Below the pieces are notes generated by a model, which was not told where the DNA came from, ran no database searches, and was given only the letters and a program-made list of their open reading frames with translations. DNA of 63,981 nt, filler included, from Stramenopiles sp. TOSAG23-6 (lineage: Eukaryota): assembly GCA_900128565.1 (NCBI GenBank). It is 4 parts of 4 records of this genome, joined end to end, with 100 filler letters (N's around TTAATTAATTAA, not from the genome) between each part and the next. Parts side by side here need not be neighbours in the genome. Positions count along the whole stretch, not along the records: positions 1 to 16,589 come from LT636092.1; positions 16,690 to 33,151 come from LT636093.1; positions 33,252 to 49,536 come from LT636094.1; positions 49,637 to 63,981 come from LT636142.1. One strand, written 5' to 3'. Below, piece after piece: positions 6,873-63,981 of the stretch (position 1 is the stretch's first letter; each line of letters begins with the position of its first letter). A program made the position numbers and the translations under genes.

Positions 6873-9744
6873 TTACACTGTCTCTGAATCATCTTTCCTT
6901 ACTATTAATTCTGCGACCACACCATTATTATCAGAAACACCTCCAACAGGATCCAATGCTCTCATTTGAATTACACTCTGTGTCTCCCAAGATTGAGGAA
7001 TTTCATATTGAAAATTGCCACTTTTAAACCATACAGCCTCAGTTGTAACAGTATCAGACCATGATGATCTGATTTTTTGCTCCTGTAGATAATCAATTTG
7101 CTTTTGGTCAGGTGTTCCAAGATAGTGAGAAACAACACTTGTAAAGTCTCCCATTACAATGTCAGTACCAGCTCTAAATATCTGGTTGATAGCCTCAACC
7201 TTGACCTCAGTAATGTGTTTTTCCTGGGCATTATCTTCAACTTTCTCTCCACTGCAAAGATCCACATTAGCCACTACAATGTTTGTGCTTGGTCTTAGTT
7301 TTAGTTCCAATTTTAACAAAAGTGTTTCCCTCTGTATTTCACAAAACTCTGCAGGAATCTTCTGCTTACTCTCCTCACCTGGTGATACATCCCAATCAGA
7401 ATTACGCCTCAATAAAAATGCTTGTAGATGAGTACGCTGTATCTGTTTACCATTACCACCTACATAGAGATTCCTCATGACTTTTTCATAGCATGGAGAA
7501 AAGTCAGTATGTCGGTCAAATAATGGTACTGTCTGCAAGGCTACAACATCTGGAGTATGTATTTCAAGTTGCTGTGCTAGAGTGTCACGAATGTATCATG
7601 AAAATATATTATGTCAAATTCGAAATTTGTTAGTATATTATAGAATTTGGTACAGAGAAATATTAACTTTGAAATTCATGATGAAAACGTGCATTTCTTC
7701 TGGCCTTCTTCCATCAGGGTTTACCAATCCCAAATTGATTGTTGCCACCTTAATTTTTGGATATAGACCCTTTTCACTTATTACTTCTCTACAGATTGGT
7801 AGTCCATAATTCACTTGATAAACTGGAAGAACCGCCTGGATATCTCTTACCATAAAGTAACCAGCTACTGTATCGGGGTAGTCACGATTCATACTCCAAC
7901 TATCGTATTTTGCTTCCGGCGTTTCATAAGATTTCCATTTTGCATTTGTTTTTGTTCTTCCTGGTGCTACAAGATTCAAAATGACACTTCCATGATATGA
8001 TCCATCATCAGTATTACCAAAATGAAAAGCTGGTTCTGTCGCATATCTATCTAAATAAACTGCATTCCCCATTACATTTCCATTTTCCCTTGGGTGTCTT
8101 TCTCCATCATATATTTCACCACCTATACGGTATCCATCTTCAAATATTTTTTCTCTTGCGTTCTGATCACGACATCCATGCCATAGCCATTCTAACTTGT
8201 CTGATACGTCTCTTTTTTTTAATTCTTCAGCTTTTTTGTAAAACGGAATCGATAGCTTTTCATTTTCACATACAATAACAGATTTTACCTCACGTTCGCC
8301 CCAAGCATTGTCCCATTCCCAACCTTCTCTTACCTGCAAAGTTTTAAATTTTCTGGCTGCAAATTCAAAGTGACTCTTGAGAAATGGATCTTTTTCTGTT
8401 GAAAATATTTCAACACAATGTGCCGAATGGGTTATCTTTGCTTCTCCTTTCGCATCGGACTGTCTGACACTTTTCTGGAGTGGTTCCGGAAGATGTCGTT
8501 TAGTTACATATTGCCATTTCAAAAATGCAGATTTTAATTTACGTGAAAGGAACTTTAACTTTTCTTCATGTAATGCCAAGAGTTTTTGTCGATCATTTAC
8601 TCCAAGTACCAAAAAAGAATGTTCATGTATCCCTAATTCTGGGTGAATTGCATTTAATAAACTTCTAATATGATTTTTTTTCAATGATACATTATTCCAT
8701 TCAACGAGCTGACATGTACTGTGAAAAATATGTAAATAAATATATCGTAAGATATGAAATTTGGTACAAAAAAAACTTTAAAATTGATGATGAAAAAGTA
8801 CGTGTATCAGCAAACAACTGCCTACTCTCTTCTAAACCAGGAAGTGGAAGAAAACTATCTTCAGTTCCAAGAAAATCCAATAGAAAACGTTGACGTGCTC
8901 GTTCTCTTTTTCTATACTTTTCTTGGAGAGGATCTAGATCAAGTAATGTGAAAAAATATGTCAAATTTGAAAATCCTCAGATATGAAATTCATTACAAAA
9001 AACGCTAACCCTAATTAAAATTAATGATAAAAACGTACAGATAAAAAGGGATACCTTTCAAAAGCTACAGCAACATTGTCATACATAACTTTAGCACCTT
9101 TCAATAGATTAATTTCAAGTTTTATCTTTTCTCGAGGATCCTTGCTTCCTTTTTCACGTGCTCGATGTATTGTGAAAAATATGTAAAATTCGAAATTCGT
9201 TAGGTATGGAATTTGGTACAAAAACAAAATTGAAATTTTACTGATGAAAAGGAAAACGCACAGGTACTTCAAGATGCCTAATTCTGCTTAAAGCATTTGC
9301 TTCATAATTTTTAAAAAGTCTTTCCATTTCGTCTTTTTTTTTTATTATTTGTACTTTGTCCTTGTTCATTTCTTCTTTGTACTTGTTTATTTCTTCTTTG
9401 TATTTTAACAATTCCGATAGCTTTTCTTCTAGAGCCATAATCTCTATTTGTTTTTTGGGTGTTCTTTTTCTTTGGTTCCTTTCATGAAGTATTTTCTCGC
9501 GTGTTTTTGTTACTTCTGCATCAAGATCCGGGTGTTTTATTAATTTTAATTTTGCTTCGTGAAGTTCCATAGAATGTAATGTACTTTCATGAAATTCAAC
9601 AATGACTTTCCTATCTTGAAGAATTCTCTGGAAAATCGCTTCATGATGTTCTCGACGTTCCGTCCTCAATTCATATTCTTTGGCGGAAAGTGCCCCATTC
9701 ACAGTGACAAAGTTTAGAAATAGTAATAAGATACATATTGACAT
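6873..9744 (-). CDS. Five-exon gene: signal peptide, coiled coil, PARP-like catalytic domain and degenerate EEP domain
   Basis: Five ORF pieces join in frame after removing introns 9165-9261, 8941-9038, 8714-8801 and 7591-7692. PARP-like WLWHGC..KIFEDGY..GNAVYL..VLPVYQVNY; EEP-like PDVVALQ, VMGDF, SD. Confidence 0.7.
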
Positions 9745-10095
9745 TCTTTCAATTGTTCCACTAAATGATTAATGTTGTTATACTAAATTAGTTCTCTTGT
9801 CGTTTCGGTGAAGTAATATGAAAGTGTGTGTGCATTCATAACAGAAAAGAATCTCCGCATGATCGACACAGGTTCGAAGATTCGACAGACATCAAAATTT
9901 CTTGGATCAGTCAAATCTCAAGACTCAAGATTGTTTCTTTTTTTTTCAATCGTATTTTCTCAACCACTCTCCATTCTGCACTACAGAAAAGGGAGATAGA
10001 GCTTATTTTTGAGAAGAAAGGAAAAGAACATCTGGTCGTGTATTTGTTGGAAACAGGTTCTACGGAGGACACCGAGGGTGTTCTTTCCTAAAAGT

Positions 10096-11121
10096 ATGGG
10101 GACTACGTTTTCAACTAAATCGACGGAAGCAGTGTCTACAAAAGGTGATTTCAATTCAAACCAAAAAAGCGAAAAGATTGGTTCAAGCATAGATGAAATA
10201 CATGCTCAAGTTAGATCCGCTTATCATCGTACAGCAGAAGGTGGATCTCTTGCTACAGGTGCTTCTGCAGGTTGTTGTGGTGTTGAAAGGGACTATGACG
10301 CAGTATCAATGCGTTTAGGCTACACTGCGGAAGATATTGAAAAAGCTGGGGAAAGTAACCTTGGTTTGGGGTGTGGCCAACCCGTTAGTTGGGCAAACTT
10401 AAAACCTGGTGAGTTTGTTATTGATTTAGGCTCAGGTGCAGGTTTTGATTGTGTTTTAGCTGCTGGTCAGGTCGGACCAAAAGGCAAAGTTGTTGGTATT
10501 GACATGACACCTAAAATGGTTGATAAAGCAAATAGGAGTGTCAAAGAAAAAGGTTTGTCTGAATATGTACAATTTATTCATAGTGAAATTGAACATTTAC
10601 CTGTTGAAAGTGGTATGTTTGACTGTTTATTATCAAATTGTGTAGTGAATCTTTCTCCTGATAAAAACCAAGTATGTACGTTTTCAAAATTGAATTTCAA
10701 ATTTTTATCTTTTTTTCGTACGAAATTTCGTACCTAATGAATTTTGACTACATTTTTTTTTCACAAAACATGTCGAGAAGCCTTTCGAGTACTCAAAGAA
10801 GGTGGAAGACTTTGTATATCTGATATTATTGCGACAACAGAAATACCAGAAAGACTTCAAACTGCTGAAGCTTTGGCATGCTGAGTTGCAGGAGCCTCAC
10901 GAAAACATGAATTACAGACAATGCTTGAAAATGCTGGCTTTGTCAATGTATACATTGAAGAGAAACCTACAAGTAAGAATTTTATAAAGGATTGGCTTCC
11001 TGGAAGTGGTGCAGAGAATTTTGTAGTTTCTGCAAAAATATCAGCAAGTAAACCAATGATGGAAGTACTAGGAGTCAAAGATGAAATCGTTCATTCGACT
11101 ACTACATCTAAAAGTCGTTGA
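10096..11121 (+). CDS. AS3MT: Arsenite S-adenosylmethyltransferase (ArsM/AS3MT family), two exons, probable selenoprotein
   Basis: [37 protein letters not shown]. Removing 10676-10771 gives [20 protein letters not shown]. In-frame TGA at 10882-10884 in AC*VAGA, after which family-like sequence continues. The start codon is the first in-frame ATG. Confidence 0.9.
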
Positions 11122-11201
11122 TAAATATTGAAATTGTAACAAAACTTTTTTTTTGCAAAAATACTTGTTTGCTTTAATACACAATCTAAATCTATATATC
11201 C

Positions 11202-12294: not shown

Positions 12295-13197
12295 TTATAA
12301 GAAGTATTTATACCAAATCAAACCTCCCGCCAAAAGTAGTAAGGGTGAACTTTCCAGAGCATAATTTACCTGACTAGTGATTTTTGTATATAAAGTTGTA
12401 TCCTCTCTCTCCTGTGTCAAAGTTACAAGTGAACTCACTAAAGCTGACATCCTATTATAATCAAGATCCCAATAGCAGTTTTGATTCTTACGAAAATTGA
12501 TTGGAGTTCGCTCTGTTTCGTCTTGCATCCCTCCAAATGCAAATACAGTGTTTATCAAATATGTCACATTCAAAATTTGTTTAGGTACAAAAAAAACATA
12601 GAATTTGAAAGGATAGAAAACCTTTGAAGTGAGTATGAAAAAAAAAACAATTTAAAATTTAAAATTTAAAATTTAAAATTCATGATGAAAATATAAATTT
12701 AAAAAAAATACATTGTTAGGTACAAAATTTCGTATGAAAACAAATAAATTTGAAAATAAAGTAAAAACAACATACATTCATCATAGATTTTACGATATCT
12801 TTTCGTTTTCTCTTTTTCAGGTTCAATTGAAATTGTTTTAGCATCGAAGGAATCTCCTCTCGTATGATAACACGCATTTCGCATTTCTGAAGTGTCTGCA
12901 ATTAAAATCGCTGGAAGTTTATTTTCCCAAAATGAAGCATGTATTTTGGAAAAATATTTGAAAATAAATCTAAAAACTTTTGTTAGGTACAAAATTTCGT
13001 ACGAAAACAAATTCGAATTTGAAAAAAAATAAAACATACATGGTCAGAACGCATGAAATCATTAAACAATCCTGGATTTTCCTTTGCATTTGGGAGCTTC
13101 TTGTACATTGTGGATATTCTTGATTGATTTGAACCATAATTACAATTAATTTCTTGGTATTCTTTGATTTCATTGCGAGCTTTTAAAAACAAATACA
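12295..13197 (-). CDS. M28-family peptidase-like gene, 3' part only (5' end lost at the inversion junction)
   Basis: Removing intron 12939-13039 rebuilds RSDH|ASFWENKLPAILIADTSEMRNACYHTRGD. Exon structure between 12575 and 12775 is unresolved. C-terminal hydrophobic tail. Confidence 0.65.
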
Positions 13198-13497
13198 CAA
13201 AGAAGAATGAAAAAGTAGAACGTGTACGTTCAAATCAAGATAGTTCTGACTCTACCAATTTGCGAACAAATAATCCAGGGAAAAGCCATCTCAGTAGTAT
13301 AAGAAGCATATTTACACCAAAAGAAGAACCAATACCAGTAAAAAAAGTTTGCCCTGCAGCCAAATATCGCGCCAAGTTTTCTTTGTAGCTGCTACCCTGG
13401 TTTTATTAAAACACAAAATGATAAAAAATGAAATAACGTTTCAGTATGTTTCAAAAAAAATAATAAAAGCTTTTATAATTTATCTTTTTAGTGATCA

Positions 13498-16589: not shown

Positions 16590-16689
16590 NNNNNNNNNNN
16601 NNNNNNNNNNNNNNNNNNNNNNNNNNNNNNNNNTTAATTAATTAANNNNNNNNNNNNNNNNNNNNNNNNNNNNNNNNNNNNNNNNNNNN
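16590..16689. other. Artificial contig spacer
   Basis: N44-TTAATTAATTAA-N44, giving stops in all six frames. Confidence 0.99.
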
Positions 16690-21328: not shown

Positions 21329-23345
21329 ATGGCAATGCTTGCAAACTCAGCAATGATTAAAGAGGAACCGCTTCCTGCAGTTCGCCCTGCTGGAGGTGGT
21401 GCCCTTGATGGTTTCGAAGCCGCTTTTGGTGTCAAGTTAGAGTCTGCGAATCCAGTTTCGAAGCGCCCGTTCTCTTCGATATCAACACCACAGCCAGGAG
21501 GTGGTAATAAACGATGGGCAAGCAGCAGCGGTAAAGCGAAGGATGTTGATCGAAGCGGATTAATGTCTTTTGGGTCTCCAGCGCCTCGCGTGAATAACAA
21601 AGCCAAGACTCCTGCGTCAACTTTGGCTTCGCGTTATACGAGTCGCTTGAACGCCGGTAAAGTAGCTTTTACATACAATAAGCAAATTCCTGTCGCCCAG
21701 TCAACAGCTAACGAGGTATCACTTAGTACACAAATGGTTAATGCCAATGTTTCAGTGAAGGTTCTTAGAGGACTTACTAAGGAACAACCTCGATACATGT
21801 ACACCTCCATGTCCCAGAGAGCTCAGGTTATGGAAGACCGTTTACTTGGAATGAGAAAAACTCTGAAGCAACAATATCTTCTTGGAGAAATTACACCTGT
21901 AGGGGTACCTAGTCAAACTGTTGTAACTGTAGTGGGTCGAGTGTGTTGTGAGCCACCTGCTGGTATGACAGAAAATGAACGCGAGAGGTTAGATGTAAAG
22001 GGATTAATGTTAGAAGGGTCACGAGAACACTCTCGTGGAGCTCGGGTACGTCTCAATTTGAAGCGCATAGCAGCATTTTCTCTTTTCCCAGGACAAGTGG
22101 TCGCCATACAAGGTATCAATGCAAGTGGTTCAGAGATGACAGTTCATCGCATTTATCATGGATGTCCAAGGTCTGCAGCTGCAACTCCTCTGGAAGAAAT
22201 TAGAAGGTTTCAGAGCAATCGTGCTGGAAAGCCTTTATCAATATGGGCTGCGTCTGGTCCATTTACTTTAAGTAGCGATTTAAACTATTTACCCCTTGTG
22301 GACATTCTTAACGAAGCAAAAATACACTCGCCAGATGTTATCATGTATTTTTTCAGCATCAATTTTAAATTTATTTTTTTCGTACGAAAGTTTGTACCTA
22401 ACAAAAAAATTGAAAATATTTTCCCAAAATACATACTCCAAGGTCCATTTGTTGATTTAAATCACCCTATGGTAAAAAGTGGAAGACTTCGTATTCCAGA
22501 TCTAGAGAAGAAACAGACAGGTAGCACAGCAATGAAGGATGTAACTTACGACCAACTCTTTACTGAGCAAGTTATTCTTAAAATGTTGGTGGAAATGTCA
22601 CATTTAGATCTTAAAAGTAAAATTGTGTTAGTTCCGTCTATACAAGATGCACACCATACACCAGTATTTCCACAACCAGCATTTTCTTCGCGCTTCTTCA
22701 CCGATGAATTGGGTAGTGATTTCACAAATAATGGACAGATTATGTCCGTACCAAATCCCTCAACGCTGAAAATTGGAGACGTCACCATGACAGTTGTACG
22801 TTTTATATGAATTTCCAATTTAATTTTTTTTTTCATACGAAATTTCGTACCTAACGATTTTTTTGTAGAAATATTTTTTCACAATACTTGGTAGTCATGA
22901 CATTATTGGGCATCAACTTGGTCGAGACTGTTACCGCTGGGCAGCTCAAGCAGCTGCAAAGAATGCAAAACGGCCAAAGAAGCCAATGATTCTTGCAGCA
23001 AACTGTATCAACCAGCGTAGTATGTACCCAATTTTCCCACCAAAACAAGGATTTCCTCTCGACTTGGCGTTATTACGTCATGCAACTTTGCCATGTTCTC
23101 CTGATATTTTATTACTACGATCACAGCTCAATTTCTTTGCTGATGCAATGCCTAGTGCTGCAACGGGAGGTGCGAATACAATTGCTGTGAATGCTGGGAC
23201 ACTTTGCAGAAAATGTGCTCCTGGAACATATGCTCGCATTGTGATTCAGCCACTTAAGCTGGAAGATAAAGACAACCAAACAGAAAGTGAAGCCAAGACA
23301 CACCAAATTTCATCGCGAACTCGTGTTGAAATTGTTAGGATTTAA
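21329..23345 (+). CDS. POLA2: DNA polymerase alpha subunit B, three exons
   Basis: VVGRVCCE, SLFPGQVVAIQGINASG, ASGPFT. Removing 22345-22434 gives PDVIILQGPFVD; removing 22796-22889 gives NPSTLKIGDVTMTVGSHDII. Also QRSMYPIFP and PDILLLRSQLNFFA. Confidence 0.93.
22796..22889 (+). mobile_element. Introner-like intron, GT..TT, flanking TT repeat
   Basis: GTT|GTACG...CACAATACTT|GGT joins the POLA2 exons in frame. Confidence 0.8.
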
Positions 23346-44504: not shown

Positions 44505-45842
44505 GTAGTAGTAGTAGTATTATTAGTAGTAGTATCAGTAGTAGTTGTATCATTATTAATAAAACCATTTTCAGTACATTGTAAATATTTTCTAATTTCA
44601 ACTAATTTCAAACAATTTGCCCAATCTAGAGCTGTTTGACCAGAGTTATCTTTACACAATACATATTGAGTAAAAAAATATACCATACAACAAAAAAATC
44701 GTTAGGTACGAAATGTTGTACAAAAAAAATTAAAAATTTTCAAAAAAAAAAATCGTCATCAAAATCATTAGGTACAAAATTTCGTATAAAAAATAAAATT
44801 CATTATACTGTCAATAACATACATTACATTTCTGTGATATTAAATATTGAACAATATTTAAATGTCCTTCCTTCACAGCATAGATGAGTGCATGGATTAT
44901 AAAAAAATATTTCAAAAAAAAAAAAAACGTTAGGTACAAAATTTCGTATGAAAAAAAATTAGACAAAAAATTAAAAAATGAAAACGCACATTTTCACCAG
45001 TTATATTATTTTGAAGATGTATATTAATGTTTGTTTTTTCAATCAAATCTGGAATGCAGTCCATGTTTTATAAACAATATATAAACAAGAAGTAAAATTT
45101 GTTACATACAAAATTATTTTTTTAATTAGTTTTGTACCTAACAACAAAAAAAAAAAAAAAAAAAAAAAAAAATTTAAACGATTTTTTTTTTTTTTCGGTA
45201 AAAAAAAAAAAAAAAATAAAACGCACATTGATTCTGGCTGCTTCGTGAATGCAATACACACCATGTGAATCTTTAGCATTAACAACAATTTCTGTTTATA
45301 TTGTGAAAAATATTGTACATTCGAAATAGGTCAATAAAAAACTTAAATTTCTTAGGTACAAAATGTCGTACGAAAAAAAAATTTAATTTGAAAAAAAGTC
45401 AAAAAATATTTTTTTTTTTTTTTTTTTAGGTTTAGGTACAAAATTCCGTATGAAAAAAAAAATGATAAAATACTTTACCTAAATCTATATAAACACGTAA
45501 GAGTTGATTTGCAATGTGGATTTGACCTTTACAAACGGCACATTGTAGTGGATAACGCCCTTTTTCATCCTTTTGAAGCAACCATGATGTAATCAGTGTT
45601 GTTGGTATAGTCTTATTTGTGTTGCTTTTGTTATTTGTGTCATGAGTTATAGTGTTATTGGAGACATAATTCAACAACGCAGTCATGACTTTAACCGCAC
45701 CTATGCGTGCTGCAAAATGAAGAGGTAAAAGTTCATTCATTGCTCTGGTATAATTACTATCATTTATATATGTCATTGTAGACGTATCATCATCAATTAG
45801 AATAGCTTGCCTCAGTACAGATAAAGCAGAGGATGATGTCAT
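40337..45842 (-). CDS. Large multi-exon protein: ankyrin repeats, Asn-rich tract, WW-like domain, low-complexity/coiled-coil C terminus
   Basis: LPLHFAARIG, VNAKDSHGVYCIHEAA, TGENALIYAVKEGHLNIVQYL, KDNSGQTALDWA; LPLGWSEFIDEDGDVYY. Frame is restored across introns 45296-45473, 44892-44989, 44663-44822, 42928-43036, 42692-42859, 42526-42635, 41759-41962 and 41051-41149; one junction near 45070-45226 is uncertain. Confidence 0.75.
44220..44558 (-). repeat. (AAT/GAT/ACT)n trinucleotide tract encoding poly-Asn/Asp/Thr
   Basis: Visible TTA/TCA/GTA triplet run inside ORF 43019-44686. Confidence 0.95.
45296..45473 (-). mobile_element. Introner-like intron, GT..AA, flanking AA repeat, two core copies
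   Basis: AAA|GTATTTT...CACAATATAA|ACA joins to the ankyrin motif VNAKDSHG in frame. Confidence 0.7.
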
Positions 45843-46374: not shown

Positions 46375-47557
46375 ATGTTACAATATTCCATATTCCTATT
46401 TGTAATTGTTATGATGATGATACTAAACAATACAAATGGAGCTGAACAACCACCACCAGATGCAAATATCGCAAATATCGCAAATATCGCACCGCAACAA
46501 CAACAACAACAACAACAACAACAACCTTGTGACGTCGTAAGCGTACGACAACTACTACCAAGGGGACAACTTGAAAGTATTATTTGGGCAATGAGAACTG
46601 GCCAATACTATCAGGACTTACCAATGACTCTTAGATGCAATAAAGAGGTTGCAATGGCTGCAGTGACAGGTGCAGATGCGGGGCATGCGATGAAATACGT
46701 GCCAAAAGAAATGAATAACGACGACTACAGTGAAGTTGCGTTTGCGGCAGTAAAGTATAAAGGTTATAACATCCAATTTGTCTCCAAAGAGAAAATGGCG
46801 GATAAATTCCAAGAACTTTTACTTACCACTATGACATCGGAAATATTTTACCACCCATCAATAACAATCTCAACTATTGGTCGATATCTTGTTTGTTTTC
46901 ATCATTTAATTTTATATTCATTTTTTTTTCATAGTAAATTTCGTACCTAACAAAAAAAAATTGAAATATTGTGTCACAATACGTCCACAATCCGATTTGA
47001 TTTCTAAATGTTTACATTTTCCTTTTATTGGAAGGACTAATGCGACTCATGCTGATTTTGAGGGGAGAGCCTGGAGAGCAAAACTTGTGTATGTTTTTTT
47101 TGATCTTTACATTTTTTTTTTCGTACGAAATTTCGTACCTAACAAAAATTGTAAAAAAAATTTGAAATATTTTTTACATATTATTATTCAAAACATCGCC
47201 AATTGGAGAGAAAGAAATAATCTTCCAGTAAACGAATCAATTACACAAAATATGAAAAGACTAAAGAATCGACAAATAAAAGCTTTGTGGCCATTGAAAT
47301 CACTTGACAGGTTTGTTTTTCAAATCAAAATTGAATATTTAAATTTTTTTTTTTTTTTTTTTTTTTCATAGGAAATTTTGTACTTAACAATTTTTTTTTT
47401 CAAAAAACATTTTTTTTTACAATACATTGACGATCTTAAGAAAGGAATTTTATCATTTCTTTATAATAATGAAGATTTGAAAATGAATTTTGGTTTTCCT
47501 GCTATTTGTTGTTTAACTGGAGAGGAGCAAAATGAAGCTAAAGTAGAGGAAGGGTAA
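46375..47557 (+). CDS. Signal-peptide protein with poly-Q and DUF4116-like repeats, four exons
   Basis: Hydrophobic N terminus; LRCNKEVAMAAV and EVAFAAVKYKGYNIQFVS. Introns 46891-46984, 47089-47196 and 47311-47427 keep the frame. Confidence 0.65.
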
Positions 47558-48101: not shown

Positions 48102-49447
48102 ATGAGTTTCATTGGATTCTTTTCAAAGAAGAAACGTAATCAAGATGAAACTTCAACTGAGACACAAGAAGAGAAGGAACAGAAAGATCGACAACAAAAC
48201 AAACAAAACAAACAAAACAAACAAAACAAACAAAACAAACAAAACAAAGAATCACTTTATTCGGACAGTTCATACAGTACGCGACATCCGGCGAAAAGTC
48301 TTCAAACCAATCGAACCTCCCAAAGTTCTCAATTGTCAACTGAACATTTGTTACCATCAAAGTCATCAAAGTCATCATCAACGTCATCAACGTCATCAAC
48401 GTCATCAAAGTCTTTACGTGGATCAACACTACGAAAAAAGCACTCCCCAAATTCAATACATTCCCCAAATTCAATACACAGTTCTCGTAGTTCAATAGCA
48501 ACAAAATACTCCCTTAGTAATTATAGATATGATAGAAATTTCGGCTCTGGGAATAATGCTACTAAAAGTCGTTCACTTTTAACAAGTCATTCAATTCGTT
48601 CAATTCGTTCAACTCCTTCGCCAAATAGTTTGAGAGAAGATGTAATTGATTTTTTTTTTACAAAAAAATCGAAATATTTTTTCGTACGAAATTTTGTACC
48701 TAACAAATTTTTTTAGAATTTTTTTGAAATATTTTTCCAAAATACATGTAATTGATTTTCCAACACTTGAACTTGAACATACTTCTAATTCTAATGAAAG
48801 CTCAATTGATGAAAATGAAGAATATATTATGACTAACCCTAACCCTACTACTACTCACAATTCACCTAATAATCGAAATAACTCTAGTAATAGCCCTAAC
48901 CCTAATAATAACACAAACACAAATTTGTCTAAAGAACAAAGTTTAAAAAGTTTTGTGTGTTATACTAACCCAAAATCGAAATATTTTATACCAAAATCAA
49001 ATGTAAAACTTTTCTTTTTTATATTTCTCGTTGTAGTTGCTATAGCTGGTGGTACGTTTTATATCATTTCAATTTTAAATTTACTTTCAATTTTAAATTT
49101 AAAATTTACTTTTTTTTTTTTCAATTTTTTTTCAATTTTTTTTTGTAATTAAAAAATTTTTTTTTTTGTAATTAAAAATTTTTTTTTTTTTTTTTGCGTA
49201 AAAAAATTTCATACCTAACAAAATAAAAATTGAAATATTGTCCAAAAATAAATGTATTGTTACCTATACAAGAAAAGATGATGTGACGTTTGGAGTGTTT
49301 AAAGCATCAAAAATACAATCAAAAATACAATCAAAACTTTCGAGACGATTAGGTACGGAATTTCGTACGAAAAGTGTTCAACAAGAAGAATGTGTTAATG
49401 ATACATGGGTAAAATCTGTTCAAGATGCATGTGAAGAAACTGTAGAT
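48102..49447 (+). CDS. Ser/Asn-rich single-pass membrane protein, 3' truncated
   Basis: ORFs join in frame across introns 48642-48747 and 49052-49253; transmembrane segment LFFFIFLVVVAIAGGIV. Confidence 0.65.
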
Positions 49448-49729: not shown

Positions 49730-49766
49730 ACAATTTTATGAAATTGGTGAAATAATGAAAATGTAC

Positions 49767-52211
49767 AAATGTGCTTAAAAATGAATCACATAAATCTAAT
49801 GTTGTAGAGGATGATGAACACAATGATGTTAATAATTCAATGATTGTGCCAACAGTGCTACTTGGCCATTTATATGACAAGTCAATTGGATTATGAATGT
49901 GTTCCTATATTTGTAGAAAATATTTCAAAATTTAAAAAAATATTTTGTTAGGTACAAAATTTACTACGAAAAAAAAAATGAAAAAAAAATGAAAAAAAAA
50001 TTCCAAAATTTTTTTTAAACAAAAGATAAAAAAAGATAAAAAAAATATTCTTATTACAACACGTACCAACATTTTTGGTGTCATATGCCGGGGACACAAA
50101 ACTGTTTTCATAATTGAATATAAAATGTTTTGAACTCTTTCATCACTTTTTTCAATTTTTTCACTTTTTTCAATTTTTTCAATTTTTTCAATTTTTTCTT
50201 GATGTTGTCGACAAAATCGAACATGAATTATTTTTTCACGCCCATTACCGGGTATCAGCTGGTCAGGCACATTTTCTATAGTAAAACCTAGTAAAGATGC
50301 AATTTCTCTACTTATAGTAGGGTCATACGGTAATGTTTCAATAAGCATGTATTTTGGAAAAATATTTCAAAAAAAATCTAAAAAATTTCGTTAGGTACAA
50401 AATTTCGTACGAAAAAAAAAATTCGATTTTTTTGTAAAAAAAATAAAAAAATAAAAAAATAAAACATACATACTATCAAGACAATCAGCAACAGATAAAA
50501 TTTGTTCGGTAAAAATAAAAGGTTGAAATTNTTTTTTTTTTTTTTTTNAAANTTTTTTTTCTTCTTCTTTTGAAATTTTCGTTTTTTTTGGACTTTCTTG
50601 ATTAGGATTAGGGTTAGGGTTTTTTAATGCAGGTATGCATTTCATTACTAAATTCCACATCCCTACATAATCAATGACATTACTTGTATCAATAGCATGA
50701 TATCCATTACTTCCAGGTTGTTTTAAAGGAATTTCCATACAATGGTAAAAAAATATTTGAAAAAAAAATTCAGAATTTTTGTTAGGTACGAAATTTTTTT
50801 ACGAGATTTTTTTTACGAAAAAAAAAAAAAAAAAAAAAATGTAGGATAAAAAAATACATGCAATTACCAAATGTAAAAAAACAGCGTATTGTATTGTTTT
50901 TGACAGATTTTTGTAGACGAATAAATAATGGTGTCCAAACATTTTGAAGCGTTTTCGCAAATGAAGGTGAACCCACCATATTATCGATTGCATTGCTTGT
51001 ATTGGTTGTAGTAGAGTTAGGGTTAGGGTTAGGGTTAGGGTCGTCGAAAATTTCGTCACTAGTTAGTGATGCAAAAGCGCCAACAGGCCCTTGACATTCT
51101 AAATATATGGCATGCTGTTTGATCCCATCGATATCATCATTCGATATTTCAAAATTTTCAAAATTACATGTAGAAAGTATTGTGAAAAAATATTTCAAAA
51201 TTTACTATAAAAAAAAAATTTGTTAGGTATGAAATTTTTTTACGAAATTTTTTTACGAAAAAAAAAAATTTAAATTTGAAATTTAAATTTGAAATTCATA
51301 TAAAACGTACAACATCAAATAGAGTTGGGTTTATATACGTCACTGTAGTGTTTGTGAGGGAAGAGTCAACGGAGGAAACCCCATGTTTAAGCCAATCTAC
51401 AAGAAGATGTGATAAACGTCCATGACCTGCACTTTGGTCTGAGAGTCTTTTTGCACGTACATAAATTATGAAAAAATATTTCGAAAAAAAAAATCTAAAA
51501 AAAATTGTTAGGTACAAAATTTCGTACGAAAAAAAAAATCATACAAAAAAAAAAAAATAAAACGTACATGTTTGTAGGGTCTTTTGATGATTTTGATGCT
51601 TTTGATGCTTGTGCCCCGACAACATTTTTGATTGTAGACACGTTCAAGGTATTTTGCTGCGTATTTTCAGTCATGTTTTTTTCATCGAATGTATTTTGTT
51701 GCGTATTTTCAGTCAAAGTTTTCTCTTTGGTCTCTGCTGCTTCGATGAATGTCATGCTATTGTGTTCTGCTCGATTTGTTGTATTTGTTGTATGTGTCAT
51801 GTTTTGCTTTGTATTATTAGACATATTCTTGCTTCCATCATGTGTTATATAACCTACTCTGACTCCTAAACGATTCTGTAACTCCTCATTGAAATGTTCA
51901 CTGAAGTCCTCATCTAGAGAGTCCTCATCTAGAGCTTTCGAATGTTTTGCTGGTGGTTGTGGAGGTAATACAACGTCATCCGATGGTGTTGCATCTGATG
52001 GAGAAAGTGTATTACTCTGTTTACCTCGTTGATCAAGTAGTTTTTTCACTAATTTATCTCTGGAATTTGATGTATCGAATGCAGCGTCAACATCCACGGT
52101 TGGTTGTACTACATTACTTTCGCCTTTGTGAGTTGCAAGTTTCTGTTCTGTTTCAACAGTACAAATGAACTGCTCTTTGTTGATATCGTCATTACGCATA
52201 GAAGAAGACAT
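49767..52211 (-). CDS. Multi-exon protein of unknown function, 3' truncated
   Basis: Exons join in frame across 51175-51310 (TT), 50737-50857 (AT), 50347-50469 (AT) and one AG intron ending near 49905. The first junction (about 51465-51567) is ambiguous. Confidence 0.6.
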
Positions 52212-52554: not shown

Positions 52555-54135
52555 ATGCAAACACACGTGATATATCTATTCATCATTTGCATAGTTTCAT
52601 GTATTGTGTATGTTGAAATGTTAGACACTGACGAGCATAAACGACATGTCAAACCAGAAGTCAAACCGGACGTCATGTCAAGTCTCCCACGAATTCCACT
52701 TCACTTTAAAGCTAAAATTAAAGTGGATTTTCCCTACAAAGATTCATTTTCTATGCTAGAAGAGTCTTTTCGTACTACATTTACAAATACAACAACGCCG
52801 AATATACCAACGTTAGAAAGGCCGTTCTTATGCTTACTTCACTATGACTATCTCAACCGAAGAATGCGTGAAGATTATTATTATCTACACTCAGAAACAC
52901 CTCAACGTTTTTATACATCAATTAAGCTATACAATGAAGGAAAGAATTATATGATTTATCATAGAATTAATGATGTTCACTTCTTATCAAGTCCTGCAAG
53001 TTGTTTTATTTCGCCAACAAATGGTCGCATGATGCCTGCAGGGGAATGTACGTTTTTTTACCTTGTTTTGTTTTTTTTTTCGTACGGAATTTTGTACCTA
53101 ACAAAAAAAATCCAAATTTTGAAATATTTTTCGAAAATACATATTTTGATCCACAACTTGAGTTTTATGGAGTGACCAACATCACAATTAGGTGAGTCTC
53201 CAACCCTAACCCTAACCTGCATTTCACCCTTTTTTTTTTTTTTTTCTATGAAAAGTTAAAGTTTTAAAATTTGTCTGTTATTTTCTATATAATATAATAT
53301 AATATAATATAATATAATATAATATAATATAATATAATATAGTCTTCAAAATTCAAATATATCAATTGATACCTAACATTTTTTTTTTAAACCTATGAAA
53401 TTTTGTACCTAACAATTTTTTTTTTTTTTTTTTTTTAAACCTATGAAATTTCGTACCTAACAAAAATTAAATTTTTAATTTGAAATATTTCAATGAGATA
53501 CATTGGGGCCAAAAATAAACAGCATGTATGTTTTATTTTATTTTTTTAACAAAAAAATCGAATTTTTTTTTTTGAAAATTCTGTACCTAAAAATTTTTTT
53601 TTTGAAATATTTTTTTCCTAACGAAATTCGGTACCTAAAATATTTTTTTTGAAATATTTTTCCAAAATACATACTGTCCATGTAGAACATTGGAACACAA
53701 TCTTTAACAATGCTGAATATGACTTTTTTATTTCTCGAAAGACAAAAAAAATCATTCAAATTAAACAAATTCATTCAAATTTTACATTTTTCGATTTTCA
53801 AGAAGGACCCAATACTGTTGGAGATGTATGTTTTTTTTTCGTACGAAATTTTGTACCTAACAAAAAACGAAACAAAAAATCAATATGAATTTCAAATGTT
53901 TTTTTTCGTACGAAATTTCGTACCTAACAATTTTTTTAATAATTTTTTTTGTAATTTTTTTACAATACATGCTTTATTTATTCCCCATTTAGTTAGTGCA
54001 GTTGAATGTGAACCAATTGGTGGGCATCATCATAATAAAAATCAGTACCAAAAATTTCCTACAAAACAAAATTTTGCATTTTCTAAAATTAATTTAAAAA
54101 AAGCCGAAGAAAAATATAAAAAAAAAAAAAAATAA
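52555..54135 (+). CDS. Secreted or anchored ependymin-related (EPDR-like) protein, five exons
   Basis: N-terminal hydrophobic segment; LHYDYLNRRMRED; C-terminal FFDFQEG...DALFIP...C pattern. Introns 53048-53142, about 53192-53498, 53526-53672 and 53826-53970. Confidence 0.5.
53288..53341. repeat. (ATATA)n pentanucleotide microsatellite inside an intron
   Basis: About 11 tandem units read directly. Confidence 0.95.
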
Positions 54136-58886: not shown

Positions 58887-59165
58887 AGCCAAATGAGTTG
58901 GATTGAAATTCTTTGTAATACTCTAGCTAGTACGGTATTTTATTGTATTTTATTATCGGATGTTATCAAGGAGCCAGTATTTCTACATGTAGTAAGCCAT
59001 AAGTCTTACCAGTGTAAACAAAATTTCATGAAAAAACATCGCTCCTGTCGACAATTTTCAATTTAAATTTGACATTTTTTTTGAAATATTTGAATGGTGT
59101 TTTCTCCTCTTCTGTCTATTTTTTTTTGAAACCAAAAGTGGAATTACCACAAAGTCACTTCAATC

Positions 59166-61187: not shown

Positions 61188-62465
61188 ATGACTTTGATAA
61201 CACCAGAAGCTGTTGAAGAAGCCGAAGACTTAATCGACGATGGAATGTTTCAAGAAGCAGCATTGCTTGTTGAGACAGCTATTGCATCTTTAGGAGATCT
61301 TGAGATGCTTTCACGTGCTGCATGTGCGCGTGGTCAGGCATTTCTTGGACCTCTTGTGCGCAAGATCATCGACCCTACACAGGAAAATCCACACCAGGAT
61401 ATGTTCAAAGAACCATGGAAAATGTTTCATCTAGCTCTCAAACTTGATCCGGATAATGAACTTGCCGCTTCGAACATCAGGAATATGTCTGGTGTGATGG
61501 GAGAAGGTCCAGACGCAGAAATTGAGCCGAACCATTCTGAGACATTCGACGTAATCATTGTTGGTGCTGGTGCATCAGGCGTTGGTGTAGCGCTGTCTTT
61601 GACAAAAATATTTGGTCTAGACCCTACACGGGTTTTGCTTGTCGAACGAGGCAAAGCAGTTGGTGAAACATTTCGTCGTTGGCCTAAAGAAATGCGTTTT
61701 ATTTCACCCTCTTTCAATCAACAAGGTTGGACCTCATCCTTTGACCTAAATTCTGTGGCTTACGGGACATCGCCTGCCTACACACTTGGCGCTGAGCACC
61801 CGACTGGTATCCAGTATGCACGTTACCTATCAGCTCTTGCGGATGAAGCTAATTTAAATATGAGAACTCTGACTGAGGTCACTGCAGTCAGACCATTTGC
61901 TGATGGTGTATGTTTTATATGAATTTCTAATTTAATTTTTTTTTTTGATTTTTTTTCATACGAAATTTCGTACCTAACAAATTTTTTTTTTATAGAAAAT
62001 TTTTGAAATATTTTTTCACAATATGGAATGGTTTTGAGGTTGATGTTACCGCAGCAAAAGGAGCTTTGGGATTACCCGAAACACTTCGTAGTCGATATGT
62101 AATATGGGCGGCAGGTGAATTTCAATATCCTACGTCTAGTATTCCATGTTTGTTCCAATGATACATTTCAAATATTTTTTTTTTTTTGGTTTTTTTTCAT
62201 ACGAAATTCTGTACCTAACAAAATTTTTTTAAATTTTTTTTTTACCGAAAAAAAAAAAAAAATATTTTTTCACAATACATTATTTCCTGGATCTGACTTA
62301 TGTCTTCACAACTCTTCAGTACGTAGTTGGACACAACTCCCTGGAAATGACTTTGTAATTATTGGCGGTTTTGAGAGTGGAATGGACGCTGCATCTAATC
62401 TTGCACTGAATGGAAAGCGGTGCACTGTTGTGTCTTCAACGCCTCATTGGAATGTTCAGGACGAT
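61188..62465 (+). CDS. FAD/NAD(P)-dependent oxidoreductase (Pyr_redox_3-like) with a TPR-like N terminus; 3' part missing
   Basis: DVIIVGAGASG, FISPSF, EHPTG..YA.YL. Introns 61908-62026 and 62148-62280 give VIWAAGEFQYP and PLFPGSDLCLHNS; IIGGFESGMDAA. Confidence 0.85.
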
Positions 62466-62662
62466 GAACGTTTTCATTTCGATTTTTTTTTTTTGAAATT
62501 TTTTTTTTTTTGAAATTTTTTTTTTCGTACGAAATTTTTTACCTAAAAATTTTTTTTTGATTTTTTTTTTTTTTTCAATTTTTTTCCAAAATTTTTTTTC
62601 GTACGAAATTTTTTACCTAACAATTTTTTTTTTTTTTTTTTGAAATATTTTTCCAAAATACA

Positions 62663-63865
62663 TATGGGCTGTCTCCGACACAAGTCATTCAAGAATTCGG
62701 TCTAGTTGAACACAACTCAAATTCAACTGTTGCGAAACCCAACATAACTACGGCTATCGATTTGTCTTTTAAAAATGATACAAATGATGATAGTATTCAA
62801 AATAATGGCGATGCAGAAACAATTCCTCAAGATGATGATTTTGAATCAGAAGGACAATTGTACTCTGTTGTTGAAAATGCTGAAAAAAATAATCCAAAAT
62901 TATCTAAAAAGAAAGAATTTTGTGGTAGGAAATTGCCTATACATCGAGCAAATAAAGAAAAACTACTCATGGAAAAAGAACGAAAGTTACGTGAAGAATG
63001 TGTGTTTTCATCATTTATTTTTTTTCATCATTTTTTTTTTTGAGAATTTTTTTTTTTGAGAATTTTTTTTTTTTTGAAAATTTTTTTTGAAAATTTTTCA
63101 TGTGTTTTTGTGGTACATTTGGTACTTGACTAAAAAAAAATTATATATATATATATTTTTTTTTTGTACGTCGCTAGACACAAAATTTACGTTAAATGTT
63201 TTTTTTTTTAAAGAATGCTTCTCACTTATGAAAAAAACAAACTGTTATTGAATAGTCTCACAAAACTAACCCTAACCCTAACCAGACTATTTTCACAAAA
63301 ATCAGGTACATTCCGCCCAAAAATTAATAAAACATATCAATCAAAAAGAGCAAAAATGGAAAAATCCTTAACTCAATCTGAAAAATTTTCACAAATGTCA
63401 GCGTTACATACAAAAACAATGCATGTTTTATTATTATTTTTTTTTCCGGTAAAAAAAAAATCAATTTTTTTTTTTGATAAAAATTTTGTACCTAACAAAT
63501 TTTTTTTTTTTTTTTTTTCAAATATTTTTCCAAAATACAGGCAAAGACGGCTTCAATTAAAGGAAGCTCATCAGAAGAAGATAGAAGAAGAATGTTCTTT
63601 TCATCCTCAAATTAATACATATAAAAAATCCAAGAGATATAAACAAAGCACAAAAAATACTATAACTATTGAAAATATTGAAAATAAGGAAAACCAAAAA
63701 AAAAAAAATCCAAAAAATCCAAAATTTCAAAAAAGTACAACAAAAACACGAAAAATAGTCAATAGATTGTACGCTGAAGCGGACAGTCGTGCAGTCAAAC
63801 GACGTAAAGCAAAACAACAACTAGAAGATCAACAGTTACATTCATTTCCATATAAGCCAAATATT
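62663..63865 (+). CDS. Internal exons of a basic coiled-coil protein with ECxFxPxIN repeats
   Basis: EECTFRPKIN (across intron 63000-63305), EECSFHPQIN, FPYKPNI, RLY motif; GC-AG intron 63421-63540. Confidence 0.6.
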
Positions 63866-63981
63866 GTACGTTTTTTAATACATTTTTTTTTTTTGAAAAT
63901 TTGATTTTTTTTTTCGTAGTAAATTTCGTACCTAACAAAAAAAAAAAAAAAAAAAAAAATTTAAATATTTTTTCACAATTT

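What the first reader, a model, noticed from the sequence alone, without database searches (positions are those of the whole stretch)
7591..63981. Window-wide intron class that does not end in AG (mostly GT-AT): a non-standard 3' splice-site rule
Seen: in all four contigs, genes are interrupted by ~90-200-nt inserts with consensus GTAYGTTTT...TTTCGTACGAAATTTYGTACCTAAC...GAAATATTTTTCMAAATAC-NN. By hand I rebuilt about 38 junctions where cutting after NN restores the frame: NN = AT (31), TT (3), GT (2), AA (1), GG (1). About 7 end in AG, at the same position of the same motif (e.g. CAATAC-AG at 35316, TAATAC-AG at 28321, AAATAC-AG at 63540). Cutting there rebuilds conserved motifs: SDHB GPAVLM|QAYRW, POLA2 PDVII|LQGPFVD, PhzF QC|SARGG, GTDC1 GC|FPVCP, M28 RSDH|ASFW. 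Known: the major spliceosome almost always needs AG. Abundant non-canonical introns are reported in euglenids, Amoebophrya and the tunicate Fritillaria, but I do not recall this GT-AT architecture. Inference: a U2-like donor and CTAAC branch-like motif are kept while AG is dispensable, and the upstream exon mostly ends in T (AT|GT rather than AG|GT). This suggests an altered spliceosome or an acceptor defined by structure or distance.
Basis: partly seen in the sequence, partly recalled or inferred. Interest (0 to 1): 0.97.

Follow-up and report, generated by a model that had tools for sequence, protein, structure and literature searches.

The report
Mobile introns that end without AG
A short mobile DNA element has inserted dozens of times into the genes of an uncultured marine protist, and it appears to be spliced out as an intron that starts with the usual GT but mostly ends in AT instead of AG, which bears on how cells find intron ends and on how such genomes are annotated.

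Summary
One repeat family gives 55 profile hits across all four contigs. It starts GTAYGTTTT, has a central CGTACGAAATTTYGTACCTAAC, and ends ..AAATAC plus two bases. Those two bases are AT at 26 of 36 assignable 3' ends, TT at 3, GT at 2, GG at 1, AG at 3, and cut by a contig end at 1.

Cutting GT..NN joins the flanking reading frames in 14 of 16 clear cases. It also makes SDHB, PhzF and POLA2 collinear with homologues.

The two bases before GT equal the two terminal bases in 19 of 27 copies (P about 0.001). That is a 2-bp target-site duplication, so these are introner-like transposon insertions. GT..AT could then be read equally well as AT..AC. One SDHB intron with unequal flanks places the cut at |GT.

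All copies are sense to their genes. I found no conserved RNA structure.

The organism is a MAST-3-type stramenopile by the label of a near-identical public protein, whose gene model reads into the introns.

I obtained no RNA read across a junction, so splicing is inferred. The closest analogues are the Fritillaria and Amoebophrya transposon-derived non-canonical introns.

The parts
7591..7692 (-). family intron, GC..AT, flank AT
   Evidence: phase 2 both sides, 361/238 open codons
8714..8801 (-). family intron, GT..AT, flank AC (unequal flanks)
8941..9038 (-). family intron, GT..TT, flank CT (unequal flanks)
9165..9261 (-). family intron, GT..AT, flank CT (unequal flanks)
10676..10771 (+). 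family intron in a methyltransferase gene, GT..AT, flank AT
   Evidence: phase call ambiguous
12939..13039 (-). family intron, GT..AT, flank AT (RSDH|ASFW)
22345..22434 (+). family intron in POLA2, GT..AT, flank AT; 90 nt and open in frame, so ORF callers read through it
22796..22889 (+). family intron in POLA2, GT..TT, flank TT; holds an in-frame TTGTAG 14 nt after the branch A that would add 7 residues
   Evidence: RNA contig X9 record 29 starts at 22888
24836..24935 (-). family intron, GT..AT, flank AT
27399..27490 (+). family intron in the PhzF/PBLD gene, GT..AT, flank AT
27623..27710 (+). family intron in the PhzF/PBLD gene, GT..GT, flank GT (RQC|SARGG)
28550..28652 (-). family intron in QTMAN/GTDC1, GT..AT, flank AT
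28869..28971 (-). family intron in QTMAN/GTDC1, GT..AT, flank AT
33716..33866 (-). composite copy (two cores) in a sortilin/VPS10-like gene, GT..AG, flank AT
36091..36208 (+). diverged family intron in SDHB, GT..AT, flank AT(G)
42526..42635 (-). family intron, GT..AT, flank TT (unequal flanks)
42692..42859 (-). long diverged copy, GT..AT, flank AT; branch motif 99 nt from the end
44892..44989 (-). family intron, GT..AT, flank AT (3' end ..AATCC)
46891..46984 (+). family intron, GTTTGT..GT, flank TT (unequal flanks)
50347..50469 (-). family intron, GT..AT, flank AT; TTTTTTAG 13 nt after the branch A is not the frame-restoring end
51175..51310 (-). family intron, GT..TT, flank TT
51461..51567 (-). 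family copy with a degenerate 3' end; frame NOT restored with these ends
53048..53142 (+). family intron, GT..AT, flank AT
53526..53672 (+). composite copy, GT..AT, flank AT
61908..62026 (+). family intron in a flavin oxidoreductase gene, GT..GG, flank GT
62466..62663 (+). composite copy, GAACGT..AT, flank AT; frame NOT restored with these ends
63421..63540 (+). family intron, GC..AG, flank AT
47311..47427 (+). family 3' end paired with a 5' site chosen by frame restoration, GT..AT, flank AG
48642..48747 (+). family 3' end paired by frame restoration, GTAATT..AT; flanked by a roughly 14-nt direct repeat
49052..49253 (+). family 3' end (..AAATAA AT) paired by frame restoration, flank TG
49905..50066 (-). 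family 3' end (..AAATAT AG) paired by frame restoration, flank TG
53826..53970 (+). composite copy paired by frame restoration, GT..AT, flank AT
62148..62280 (+). family 3' end paired by frame restoration, GTTTGT..AT, flank AT
35786..36038 (+). degenerate relative in SDHB, AT|GTACGT..CACAAATC-AG; the case that fixes the donor at |GT
28321..28416 (-). relative in QTMAN/GTDC1, GT|GTACGT..ATAATAC-AG
35267..35316 (+). short SDHB intron, AT|GTACTC..CAATAC-AG

Best explanation
The inserts are copies of one non-autonomous, introner-like DNA element that has spread through the genes of a MAST-3-type marine stramenopile.

**Insertion (inferred).** Each insertion duplicates 2 bp of the target. The duplicated pair is mostly AT and nearly always ends in T.

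**Signals the element carries (shown).**
- A strong U2-type donor (GTAYGT) at its very first base.
- A TACCTAAC branch site in its middle.
- A T-rich tract.
- A conserved 3' terminus, ..GAAATATTTTTCMAAATAC.

**Removal (inferred).**
- The major spliceosome cuts at |GT and branches at CTAAC.
- It carries out the second step exactly two bases past the element's terminal C, that is, after the downstream copy of the duplicated target. That point lies 33-51 nt from the branch point.
- The cut is made whether or not those two bases are AG, and upstream YAGs are passed over.
- Because element plus one target copy is removed, excision is scarless and the original reading frame returns.

**Shown:** the family, its signals, the flanking repeat, sense-only orientation, frame restoration, and collinearity with homologues.

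**Inferred:** transposition, spliceosomal removal, and how the non-AG acceptor is recognised. My guess for the last is the conserved ..AAATAC terminus plus A at position -2 (present at 30 of 36 ends), read by the second-step machinery or a U2AF-like factor.
For: - **Family.** 55 profile hits in 64 kb, in all four contigs. Contig ends fall inside copies.
- **Flanking repeat.** The 2 nt before GT equal the terminal 2 nt in 19 of 27 copies, against 13.3 expected from shuffling (P 0.0009). There are three locus-specific non-AT matches: TT, TT and GT (P 0.009).
- **Independent copy.** A metagenome contig (L001) has AT|GT..AC AT| and a restored frame.
- **Donor.** G1 in 27 of 27 copies. T2 becomes C or A in 3 copies, as in tolerated GC/GA donors. 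G5 and T6-9 are conserved.
- **Branch motif.** CTRAY in 25 of 27 copies, 33-51 nt from the end in 24 of those 25.
- **Orientation.** 27 of 27 complete copies are sense to the coding strand. Of all 55 hits, 47 have a dominant same-strand ORF and 7 are ambiguous. The single 'opposite' call comes from a flank that crosses a contig spacer.
- **Frames.** 14 of 16 clear cases restored, 23 of 27 overall.
- **Collinearity with homologues.**
  - SDHB against a relative's transcript-sized contig protein, P0122, across two junctions.
  - PhzF against P0002 and P0003 across two junctions.
  - POLA2 against human 4y97.
- **Donor position.** At SDHB 35786-36038 only |GT..AG| gives CSTSCP. Shifts of 1 or 2 nt give Gly in place of the conserved Cys.
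- **AG not used.** 11 of 25 introns hold an AG between branch and end. Six are T-rich YAGs 13-18 nt after the branch A, and none is the frame-restoring end.
- **Weak RNA hint.** The poly(A) run X9 has a 157-letter contig (record 29). Its letters 15-157 lie on 22888-23030 with 0 differences, and its first 14 letters lie on nothing there. So it leaves the genome at the predicted TT junction, not at the AG 19 nt upstream. This is too short to count as bridging.
- **DNA.** An independent DNA run (X3) has contigs running into the POLA2 inserts from both sides (records 3 and 4).
Against: - A search for short same-species protein fragments found nothing.
- **Element depth in two RNA libraries.** In X6 and X8, depth on the element relative to unique sequence is about as high as in DNA (table 2). 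This could mean retention, stable excised introns or DNA carry-over. The tool warns that these depths are not quantitative.
- **Bypassed YAGs.** Passing over good YAGs 13-18 nt from the branch point is unusual for a U2-type second step.
- **Weak transposon hallmarks.** The inverted termini are only about 4-8 nt (GTAT(G)TTT / AAAATAC). No transposase domain was found in the window.
- **Frame failures.** 2 of 16 clear cases are not restored with my ends.
- **Donor-position case is weak.** The SDHB intron that fixes the donor ends in AG and is only a weak match to the family profile (1.7 bits).
- **Small sample.** Only 64 kb of one assembly plus one outside contig.
Confidence: 0.66

Rival explanations
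1. The same elements are removed by the spliceosome, but the true boundaries are shifted by 1 or 2 nt within the duplicated target. The class would then be AT-AC (NN|GT..AC|), with a constant ..YAC 3' end and a variable 5' dinucleotide, or T|GT..ACA|T.
For: - With equal flanks, all three placements give the same mRNA.
- The AC before NN is well conserved; the C is at consensus in most of the 27 copies.
- From recalled knowledge, A1/C-1 is a tolerated terminal pair in AT-AC introns.
Against: - At SDHB 35786-36038, shifts of 1 or 2 nt replace the conserved Cys of CSTSCP by Gly.
- G1/T2/G5 conservation and the GC and GA variants fit a donor at |GT.
- Under this reading the 5' dinucleotide would vary (AT, TT, GT, CT, AC).
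- The U12 type is excluded. There is no ATATCCTT-like donor, and the branch motif lies 33-51 nt from the end, not about 10-26 nt. The U12 consensus values are recalled, not from a call.
Confidence: 0.13
2. The inserts are removed from RNA by a non-spliceosomal route, as proposed for euglenid and diplonemid nonconventional introns. The paired intron ends would bring the junctions together for an endonuclease and a ligase.
For: - Short direct repeats sit at both junctions.
- The ends AUGUAU / AUACAU can form a 6-bp helix in 78% of the cells counted.
- AG is not required.
Against: - RNAalifold predicts 0 consensus pairs on 20 copies.
- The terminal helix shows no covariation: 347 of 500 shuffles are at least as paired.
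- Single-copy folds are not more stable than shuffles, with z from -2.3 to +0.7.
- The inserts keep a textbook donor and branch site, which nonconventional introns lack.
Confidence: 0.07
3. The inserts are cut out of DNA (IES-like) in the expressed genome, so the mRNA never contains them.
For: Precise, scarless removal with a flanking 2-bp repeat is also what DNA excision of a cut-and-paste element would give.
Against: - Orientation is strictly sense (27 of 27; no real antisense copy among 55). A DNA mechanism has no reason to respect strand.
- An independent DNA run has contigs running into the inserts (X3 records 3 and 4).
- No insert-free joint appeared among the joints listed, though that list was cut.
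Confidence: 0.03
4. The inserts are not removed at all. They would be recent, gene-breaking MITE insertions, or assembly or amplification artefacts.
For: - The assembly shows amplification-type artefacts, such as the perfect 3400-nt inverted arms of contig 1.
- The element is abundant in two RNA libraries.
Against: - Frame restoration in 14 of 16 clear cases, although insert lengths fall in all three residue classes mod 3.
- Essential genes (SDHB, POLA2) are interrupted.
- The same inserts appear in an independent metagenome run and in an outside contig.
- Copies are diverged, with median pairwise identity 65%. They are therefore old insertions in genes that have stayed open.
Confidence: 0.04

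Closest known systems
Transposon-derived non-canonical introns of the larvacean Fritillaria (F. borealis, F. pellucida)
   Same: [quoted passage not shown]
- 3'AT is the commonest intron end: 44% of F. pellucida and 34% of F. borealis introns.
- A YAY triplet often precedes the donor and forms the last three bases (PMC13326754, section 21). Here the last three bases are CAT at 26 of 36 ends and the exon end is NAT.
- The U2-type machinery is held responsible there.
   Different: - This organism is a stramenopile protist, not a chordate.
- The donor is the canonical GTAYGT rather than AG, and a strong CTAAC branch site is kept.
- A single family accounts for nearly all cases in the window.
- The duplication is 2 bp rather than the TAC triplet described for F. 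borealis.
- The Fritillaria introns have cDNA support; these do not yet.
Introner elements of Micromonas, Aureococcus, Chrysochromulina and others
   Same: - Multicopy short elements that make introns in unrelated genes.
- Target-site duplications.
- One splice site is carried by the element and the other is taken from the duplication. Chrysochromulina elements carry the 5' site and co-opt the 3' site (PMC9860276, passages).
- Scarless removal.
   Different: - Described introners use GY-AG, and the survey pipeline relied on annotated introns. Here the co-opted 3' dinucleotide is mostly AT.
- Reported duplications are 3-9 bp; here it is 2 bp.
- That paper's main text does not mention MAST lineages (0 occurrences).
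Non-canonical introner elements of the dinoflagellate parasite Amoebophrya
   Same: Repeated introns with direct repeats overlapping the junctions, inverted repeats at the ends, and non-GT-AG boundaries (PMC7789003, passages).
   Different: - Amoebophrya introns have no dominant terminal dinucleotides, 8-20-nt inverted repeats forming hairpins, 3-5-nt direct repeats, and no detectable U1.
- Here the donor and branch site are canonical, the inverted termini are very short, and no structure is supported.
Nonconventional introns of euglenids and hemistasiid diplonemids
   Same: Non-AG ends and short direct repeats at the junctions (PMC12621601 sections 3 and 5; PMC6221363 passages).
   Different: - Those introns lack a U1-complementary donor and depend on extensive end pairing. 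Neither holds here.
- The organism is not a euglenozoan. SDHB is unsplit, and its best named relatives are oomycetes and diatoms. That euglenozoan SDHB is split is recalled, not from a call.

Membership tests
Introner elements (transposon-derived spliceosomal introns) | Many related copies forming introns in unrelated genes | tested here: met
   55 profile hits. 27 complete copies lie in genes including POLA2, PhzF, QTMAN, SDHB, a methyltransferase and a sortilin-like gene.
Introner elements (transposon-derived spliceosomal introns) | Target-site duplication flanking each copy | tested here: met
   19 of 27 full matches against 13.3 expected (P 0.0009). Three non-AT locus-specific matches (P 0.009). 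L001 is also AT/AT.
Introner elements (transposon-derived spliceosomal introns) | Terminal inverted repeats | tested here: inconclusive
   Only GTAT(G)TTT against AAAATAC. The first 4 positions pair in 9-19 of 20 copies, without covariation.
Introner elements (transposon-derived spliceosomal introns) | Removed from mRNA by splicing | tested here: inconclusive
   Frame restoration in 14 of 16 clear cases and collinearity with homologues. The only RNA hint is one contig with 14 letters on the far side.
Introner elements (transposon-derived spliceosomal introns) | Canonical GY-AG boundaries | tested here: not met
   The 3' end is AG at 3 of 36 ends.
U2-type spliceosomal introns | Donor GT(A/G)NGT at the first intron base | tested here: met
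   G1 in 27 of 27 copies. GTAYGT in most, with 2 GC and 1 GA variants.
U2-type spliceosomal introns | Branch motif CTRAY upstream of the acceptor | tested here: met
   25 of 27 copies, 33-51 nt from the end in 24 of those 25.
U2-type spliceosomal introns | Terminal AG | tested here: not met
   AT 26, TT 3, GT 2, GG 1, AG 3, one cut by a contig end, out of 36.
U2-type spliceosomal introns | Lariat formation and dependence on U1/U2/U5/U6 | not testable with these tools
   No genome is held. There are no Rfam matches in the window.
U12-type (AT-AC) introns | Donor [AG]TATCCTT, and a branch site TCCTTAAC close to the 3' end (consensus recalled) | tested here: not met
   The donor region is (AT)GTAYGTTTT. 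TACCTAAC lies 33-51 nt from the end.
Fritillaria-type MITE-derived non-canonical introns | The duplication supplies the 3' end, with a YAY triplet as the last three bases | tested here: met
   The last three bases are CAT at 26 of 36 ends, and the terminal 2 nt copy the exon end. Compare.
Fritillaria-type MITE-derived non-canonical introns | Non-GT donor (AG/..) and duplicated, diverged U2AF subunits | tested here: not met
   The donor is GT here. U2AF genes could not be examined because no genome is held.
Euglenid/diplonemid nonconventional introns | Stable pairing of the intron ends and no U1-type donor | tested here: not met
   RNAalifold predicts 0 pairs. No covariation. The donor is GTAYGT.
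Ciliate-like internally eliminated DNA segments | Insert-free DNA molecules and no strand preference | tested here: not met
   Strictly sense orientation. DNA contigs of run X3 enter the inserts. The joint list was cut, so absence of insert-free DNA is not shown.

The most novel reading that the evidence does not exclude
A free-living stramenopile has evolved, independently of larvacean tunicates, a major spliceosome whose second step does not need AG. A transposon family exploits this by carrying a complete, portable splicing code: the donor, the branch site, and a terminal ..AAATAC signal that places the cut two bases further on. As a result, almost any insertion into a sense strand is scarlessly spliced out, and most introns of the genome are copies of this one element.
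Probability: 0.45. Interest if true: 0.88.

Novelty: new variant of a known kind. Interest (0 to 1): 0.76.

Why it matters
**Splice-site recognition.** If cDNA confirms it, this is a second, independent lineage in which 3' splice-site choice has come loose from AG. Here the donor and branch site stay canonical and the introns are near-identical. That makes it a clean natural experiment on what defines an acceptor: position after the branch point, a terminal motif, or A at position -2. It would be easier to dissect than Fritillaria's very diverse ends.

**Intron gain.** It would show that a transposon can spread as an intron without needing its target duplication to spell AG. That widens the conditions under which introners can invade genes.

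**Annotation.** Public gene models for this lineage are wrong at these sites.
- The near-identical EukProt protein P0001 reads into one PhzF intron and straight through the other.
- The paper on MAST single-cell assemblies that I searched reports too few complete protein matches to train a gene finder for one MAST-3 assembly (PMC5778133, passage).

Proteomes used for phylogenomics and functional inference of these abundant ocean grazers would need re-annotation with splice-motif-free junction calling.

Tried and rejected
**RNA evidence.**
- Read laying on contig 2 with three RNA runs and one DNA run listed 15 of 315 joints. All 15 were repeat-to-repeat, so the intron junctions could not be read.
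- Depths on element bins in X6, X8 and X9 were looked at. I do not rely on them, because the tool says they are not quantitative.
- A search for short same-species protein fragments spanning the POLA2 junction found no candidate.

**More copies.**
- No whole genome is held. So no snRNA, U2AF, Prp8 or Slu7 survey was possible, and no genome-wide tally.
- Rfam gave no match in the window.

**Earlier findings of this scan.** Four look-ups returned nothing on this genome or element. The only hits were unrelated Ostreococcus and human notes.

**Structure.** RNAalifold, single-copy folds and a named terminal helix gave no support.

**Organism hypotheses dropped.**
- Fritillariid larvacean. I raised this after reading PMC13326754 and dropped it because the best protein hits are a MAST-labelled EukProt model, oomycetes and diatoms.
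- Marine diplonemid. I raised this after reading PMC12621601 and dropped it for the same reason, and because SDHB is unsplit. The split in Euglenozoa is recalled.

**Autonomous partner.** No transposase domain was found in 30 ORFs scanned against Pfam.

**Unequal-flank introns as boundary tests.** The alternative readings differ by one residue at six of the eight. None falls at a residue I could show to be conserved, so only SDHB 35786-36038 was usable.

**Literature.**
- I could not obtain Henriet et al. 2019, and I tried and failed to get Gawryluk et al. 2016. I know both only through citing papers.
- Supplements were not opened. Those of PMC5778133 may hold intron statistics that I did not see.
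- No paper in the library holds 'introner' together with 'MAST' as whole words.
- The searches found no report of such introns in MAST or other heterotrophic stramenopiles.
- PMC5778133 has 0 occurrences of splice, non-canonical, repeat or transposable.
- PMC12614181 has 0 occurrences of intron, and PMC8163842 has 0 occurrences of intron.

Full report
**1. What is in the window**

The 63,981-base window is four contigs joined by N/TTAATTAATTAA spacers at 16590-16689, 33152-33251 and 49537-49636. GC is 33.6%. Three contig ends fall inside the repeat described below, as expected when a multicopy element breaks an assembly.

Genes are compact, with long exons. Pfam recognises:
- POLA2, a PhzF/PBLD protein and QTMAN/GTDC1
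- an Ldh_2 dehydrogenase and a Na/H exchanger
- SDHB, Nop53 and Rpr2
- a methyltransferase, a sortilin/VPS10-like protein and a flavin oxidoreductase
- a CAP-Gly protein and a large DUF285 repeat protein

**2. The observation**

A profile built from 15 well-defined copies finds 55 hits at E<=0.01: 7, 11, 18 and 19 in the four contigs. The consensus is GTATGTTTT(A/T-rich)TTTCGTACGAAATTTTGTACCTAAC(A/T-rich)GAAATATTTTTCCAAAATAC plus two bases.

The two bases after ..TAC, at the 36 3' ends the profile can place, are:

| Dinucleotide | Count |
|---|---|
| AT | 26 |
| TT | 3 |
| GT | 2 |
| GG | 1 |
| AG | 3 |
| cut by a contig end | 1 |

Three further AG ends sit in degenerate relatives: 35316, 36038 and 28321. 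I did not find the AA case.

For 27 copies with both ends placed by the profile:
- Insert lengths (88-198 nt) fall in all three classes mod 3.
- The best open phase on the left equals that on the right in 23 of 27.
- Among the 16 unambiguous cases it does so in 14 (p 1.2e-5).
- The two failures, 51461-51567 and 62466-62663, have degenerate ends.

Six more pairs were found by demanding frame restoration, so they are not independent evidence.

Collinearity with homologues:
- A close relative's SDHB (P0122, 258 aa, on a 964-nt contig) is collinear with the window across two junctions..[25 protein letters not shown]...
- Two PhzF homologues are collinear across both PhzF junctions.
- Human POLA2 is collinear at PDVI(I)LQGPF once the first POLA2 insert is removed.

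**3.

The two exon bases before GT equal the two terminal bases at the same locus in 19 of 27 copies. Shuffling the terminal pairs among loci gives 13.3 on average (P 0.0009). The three matches that are not AT (TT/TT at 22796 and 51310, GT/GT at 27623) are themselves unlikely (P 0.009).

An outside metagenome contig, the only hit of the core motif in that collection, carries one more copy. It has AT|GT..AC AT| and a restored frame.

Other properties of the family:
- Copies are diverged. Median pairwise identity is 65%, and nearest neighbours reach up to 88%.
- Some copies are composite, with two cores.
- None encodes a protein, and no transposase domain was found in 30 ORFs.

This is the anatomy of a non-autonomous DNA element with a 2-bp target-site duplication. 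In other words it is an introner-like family.

Where the flanks are equal, GT..AT, T|GT..ACA|T and AT..AC give the same mRNA.

**4. Which boundary?**

Two lines favour |GT..NN|.

First, position 1 is G in 27 of 27 copies. Position 2 is C twice and A once. Positions 5-9 are conserved. This is the pattern of a U1/U6-read donor that tolerates GC.

Second, SDHB intron 35786-36038 has unequal flanks: AT before GT, AG at the end. Only |GT..AG| yields CSTSCP. A shift of 1 or 2 nt puts Gly in place of the Cys that all three fetched homologues keep.

A caveat applies. This intron ends in AG and matches the family profile only weakly.

The other unequal-flank introns differ by one residue at unconserved sites.

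A U12-type reading is excluded. The donor is not ATATCCTT-like, and TACCTAAC lies 33-51 nt from the end. The U12 consensus is recalled.

**5. RNA or DNA, and by what?**

*Orientation.* All 27 complete copies are sense to the coding strand. Of all 55 hits, 47 have a dominant same-strand ORF and 7 are ambiguous. The one 'opposite' call is an artefact of a flank crossing a spacer. A DNA excision system has no reason to respect strand. Selection for a strand-specific RNA signal does.

*DNA.* An independent DNA run has contigs entering the POLA2 inserts from both sides (X3 records 3 and 4).

*RNA.* The evidence is thin. The read-laying output was swamped by repeat joints.
- One poly(A) contig (X9 record 29, 157 letters) lies on 22888-23030 with no differences. 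Its 14 leading letters do not fit the intron. So it departs from the genome at the predicted TT junction and not at the in-frame AG 19 nt upstream.
- In X6 and X8 the element is about as deep relative to unique sequence as in DNA. I cannot interpret this.

*Structure.*
- RNAalifold finds no consensus pair in 20 copies.
- The possible AUGUAU/AUACAU helix is 78% paired, but no more so than shuffles (347 of 500).
- Single folds are not unusually stable.

A structure-defined acceptor, or a euglenid-type mechanism, is therefore not supported.

*AG is bypassed.* 11 of 25 introns contain an AG between branch motif and end. Six of these are T-rich YAGs 13-18 nt after the branch A.

*What stays constant.*
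- The ..GAAATATTTTTCMAAATAC terminus, with consensus shared by roughly 70-90% or more of the copies at most positions.
- The distance window of 33-51 nt.
- An A at position -2 at 30 of 36 ends.

My best reading is a U2-type first step at GTAYGT/CTAAC, followed by a second step placed by the element's terminus rather than by AG. This last step is inference.

**6. Whose genome?**

The best hit of PhzF exon 1 is a EukProt protein whose source name begins GSMAST32. Its C-terminal 74 residues are identical to the window's read-through translation, and the rest differs by 6 residues plus gaps.

The best named SDHB relatives are oomycetes and diatoms. Seawater metagenomes and metatranscriptomes hold the stretch. 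I read this as a MAST-3-type marine stramenopile.

That public gene model uses a spurious GT-AG inside the first PhzF intron, which drops NFYSRYFAPWVG. It reads straight through the second intron.

**7. Comparison with what is known**

*Principle.* A transposon whose duplication supplies a splice site is known from introners. Examples include families that carry the donor and co-opt the acceptor (PMC9860276, passages; PMC11282704, passages).

*Non-AG ends from transposon-derived introns.*
- Known in Fritillaria, where AG/AC and AG/AT are the commonest classes. 3'AT occurs in 34-44% of introns, and YAY triplets occur at both junctions (PMC13326754, sections 4 and 21). An exonic TAC duplication forms the 3' site.
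- Known in Amoebophrya (PMC7789003, passages).
- Euglenid and hemistasiid nonconventional introns differ in lacking a donor and in needing end pairing.

*What is new here.*
- The lineage.
- The combination of canonical donor and branch site with a mostly AT end.
- The 2-bp duplication.
- The dominance of one family.

*Literature check.* I found no report of this in the papers searched. I did not see the supplements, nor Henriet 2019 or Gawryluk 2016 themselves.

**8. Verdict**

Removal at the RNA level is well supported indirectly, but it is not shown by reads.

Noticed in passing
window 1-3400 and 13190-16589: Contig 1 ends in two perfectly complementary 3400-nt inverted arms. The ORF at 1146-3089 (+) is repeated at 13501-15444 (-). 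This looks like a chimera from whole-genome amplification or assembly rather than biology.
   Followed up: partly
window 26709-27790 (PhzF/PBLD gene) and protein P0001: The near-identical public EukProt gene model is wrong at both introns. It splices with a spurious GT-AG inside the first intron, which deletes a conserved NFYSRYFAPWVG segment. It translates straight through the second intron.
   Followed up: yes
window about 48640-48760: One copy lacks the usual 5' end and is flanked by a direct repeat of about 14 nt (ATGTAATTGATTTT) instead of 2 nt. It may be a 5'-truncated copy or a microhomology-mediated rearrangement.
   Followed up: no
window 33716-33866, 53526-53672, 53826-53970, 62466-62663; also 27800-27943: These are composite or tandem copies with two CGTACGAAA..GTACCTAAC cores inside one intron. 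A partial tandem copy also lies beyond the QTMAN stop codon, in 3' UTR or intergenic DNA.
   Followed up: partly
window 28321-28416 (-) and about 28150 (-): Telomere-like CCCTAA x2 motifs sit inside the AG-ending QTMAN intron, where they supply its CTAAC, and again in the 3' end of the gene.
   Followed up: no
window 56700-58922 (-): A 741-residue ORF has nine DUF285 repeat matches (E 8e-190). This is a repeat family named after Mycoplasma proteins, here found in a protist genome.
   Followed up: no
window exon starts after the inserts: The first exon base after the insert is G in 12 of 27 copies, so many sites read ..AT|G... There the boundary ambiguity extends to 3 nt, as at SDHB 36091-36208.
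   Followed up: partly
L001:2475-2578 (-): The only public metagenome contig with the exact core motif carries one copy inside an ORF of an unrelated gene. This shows the family outside the assembly the window comes from.
   Followed up: yes
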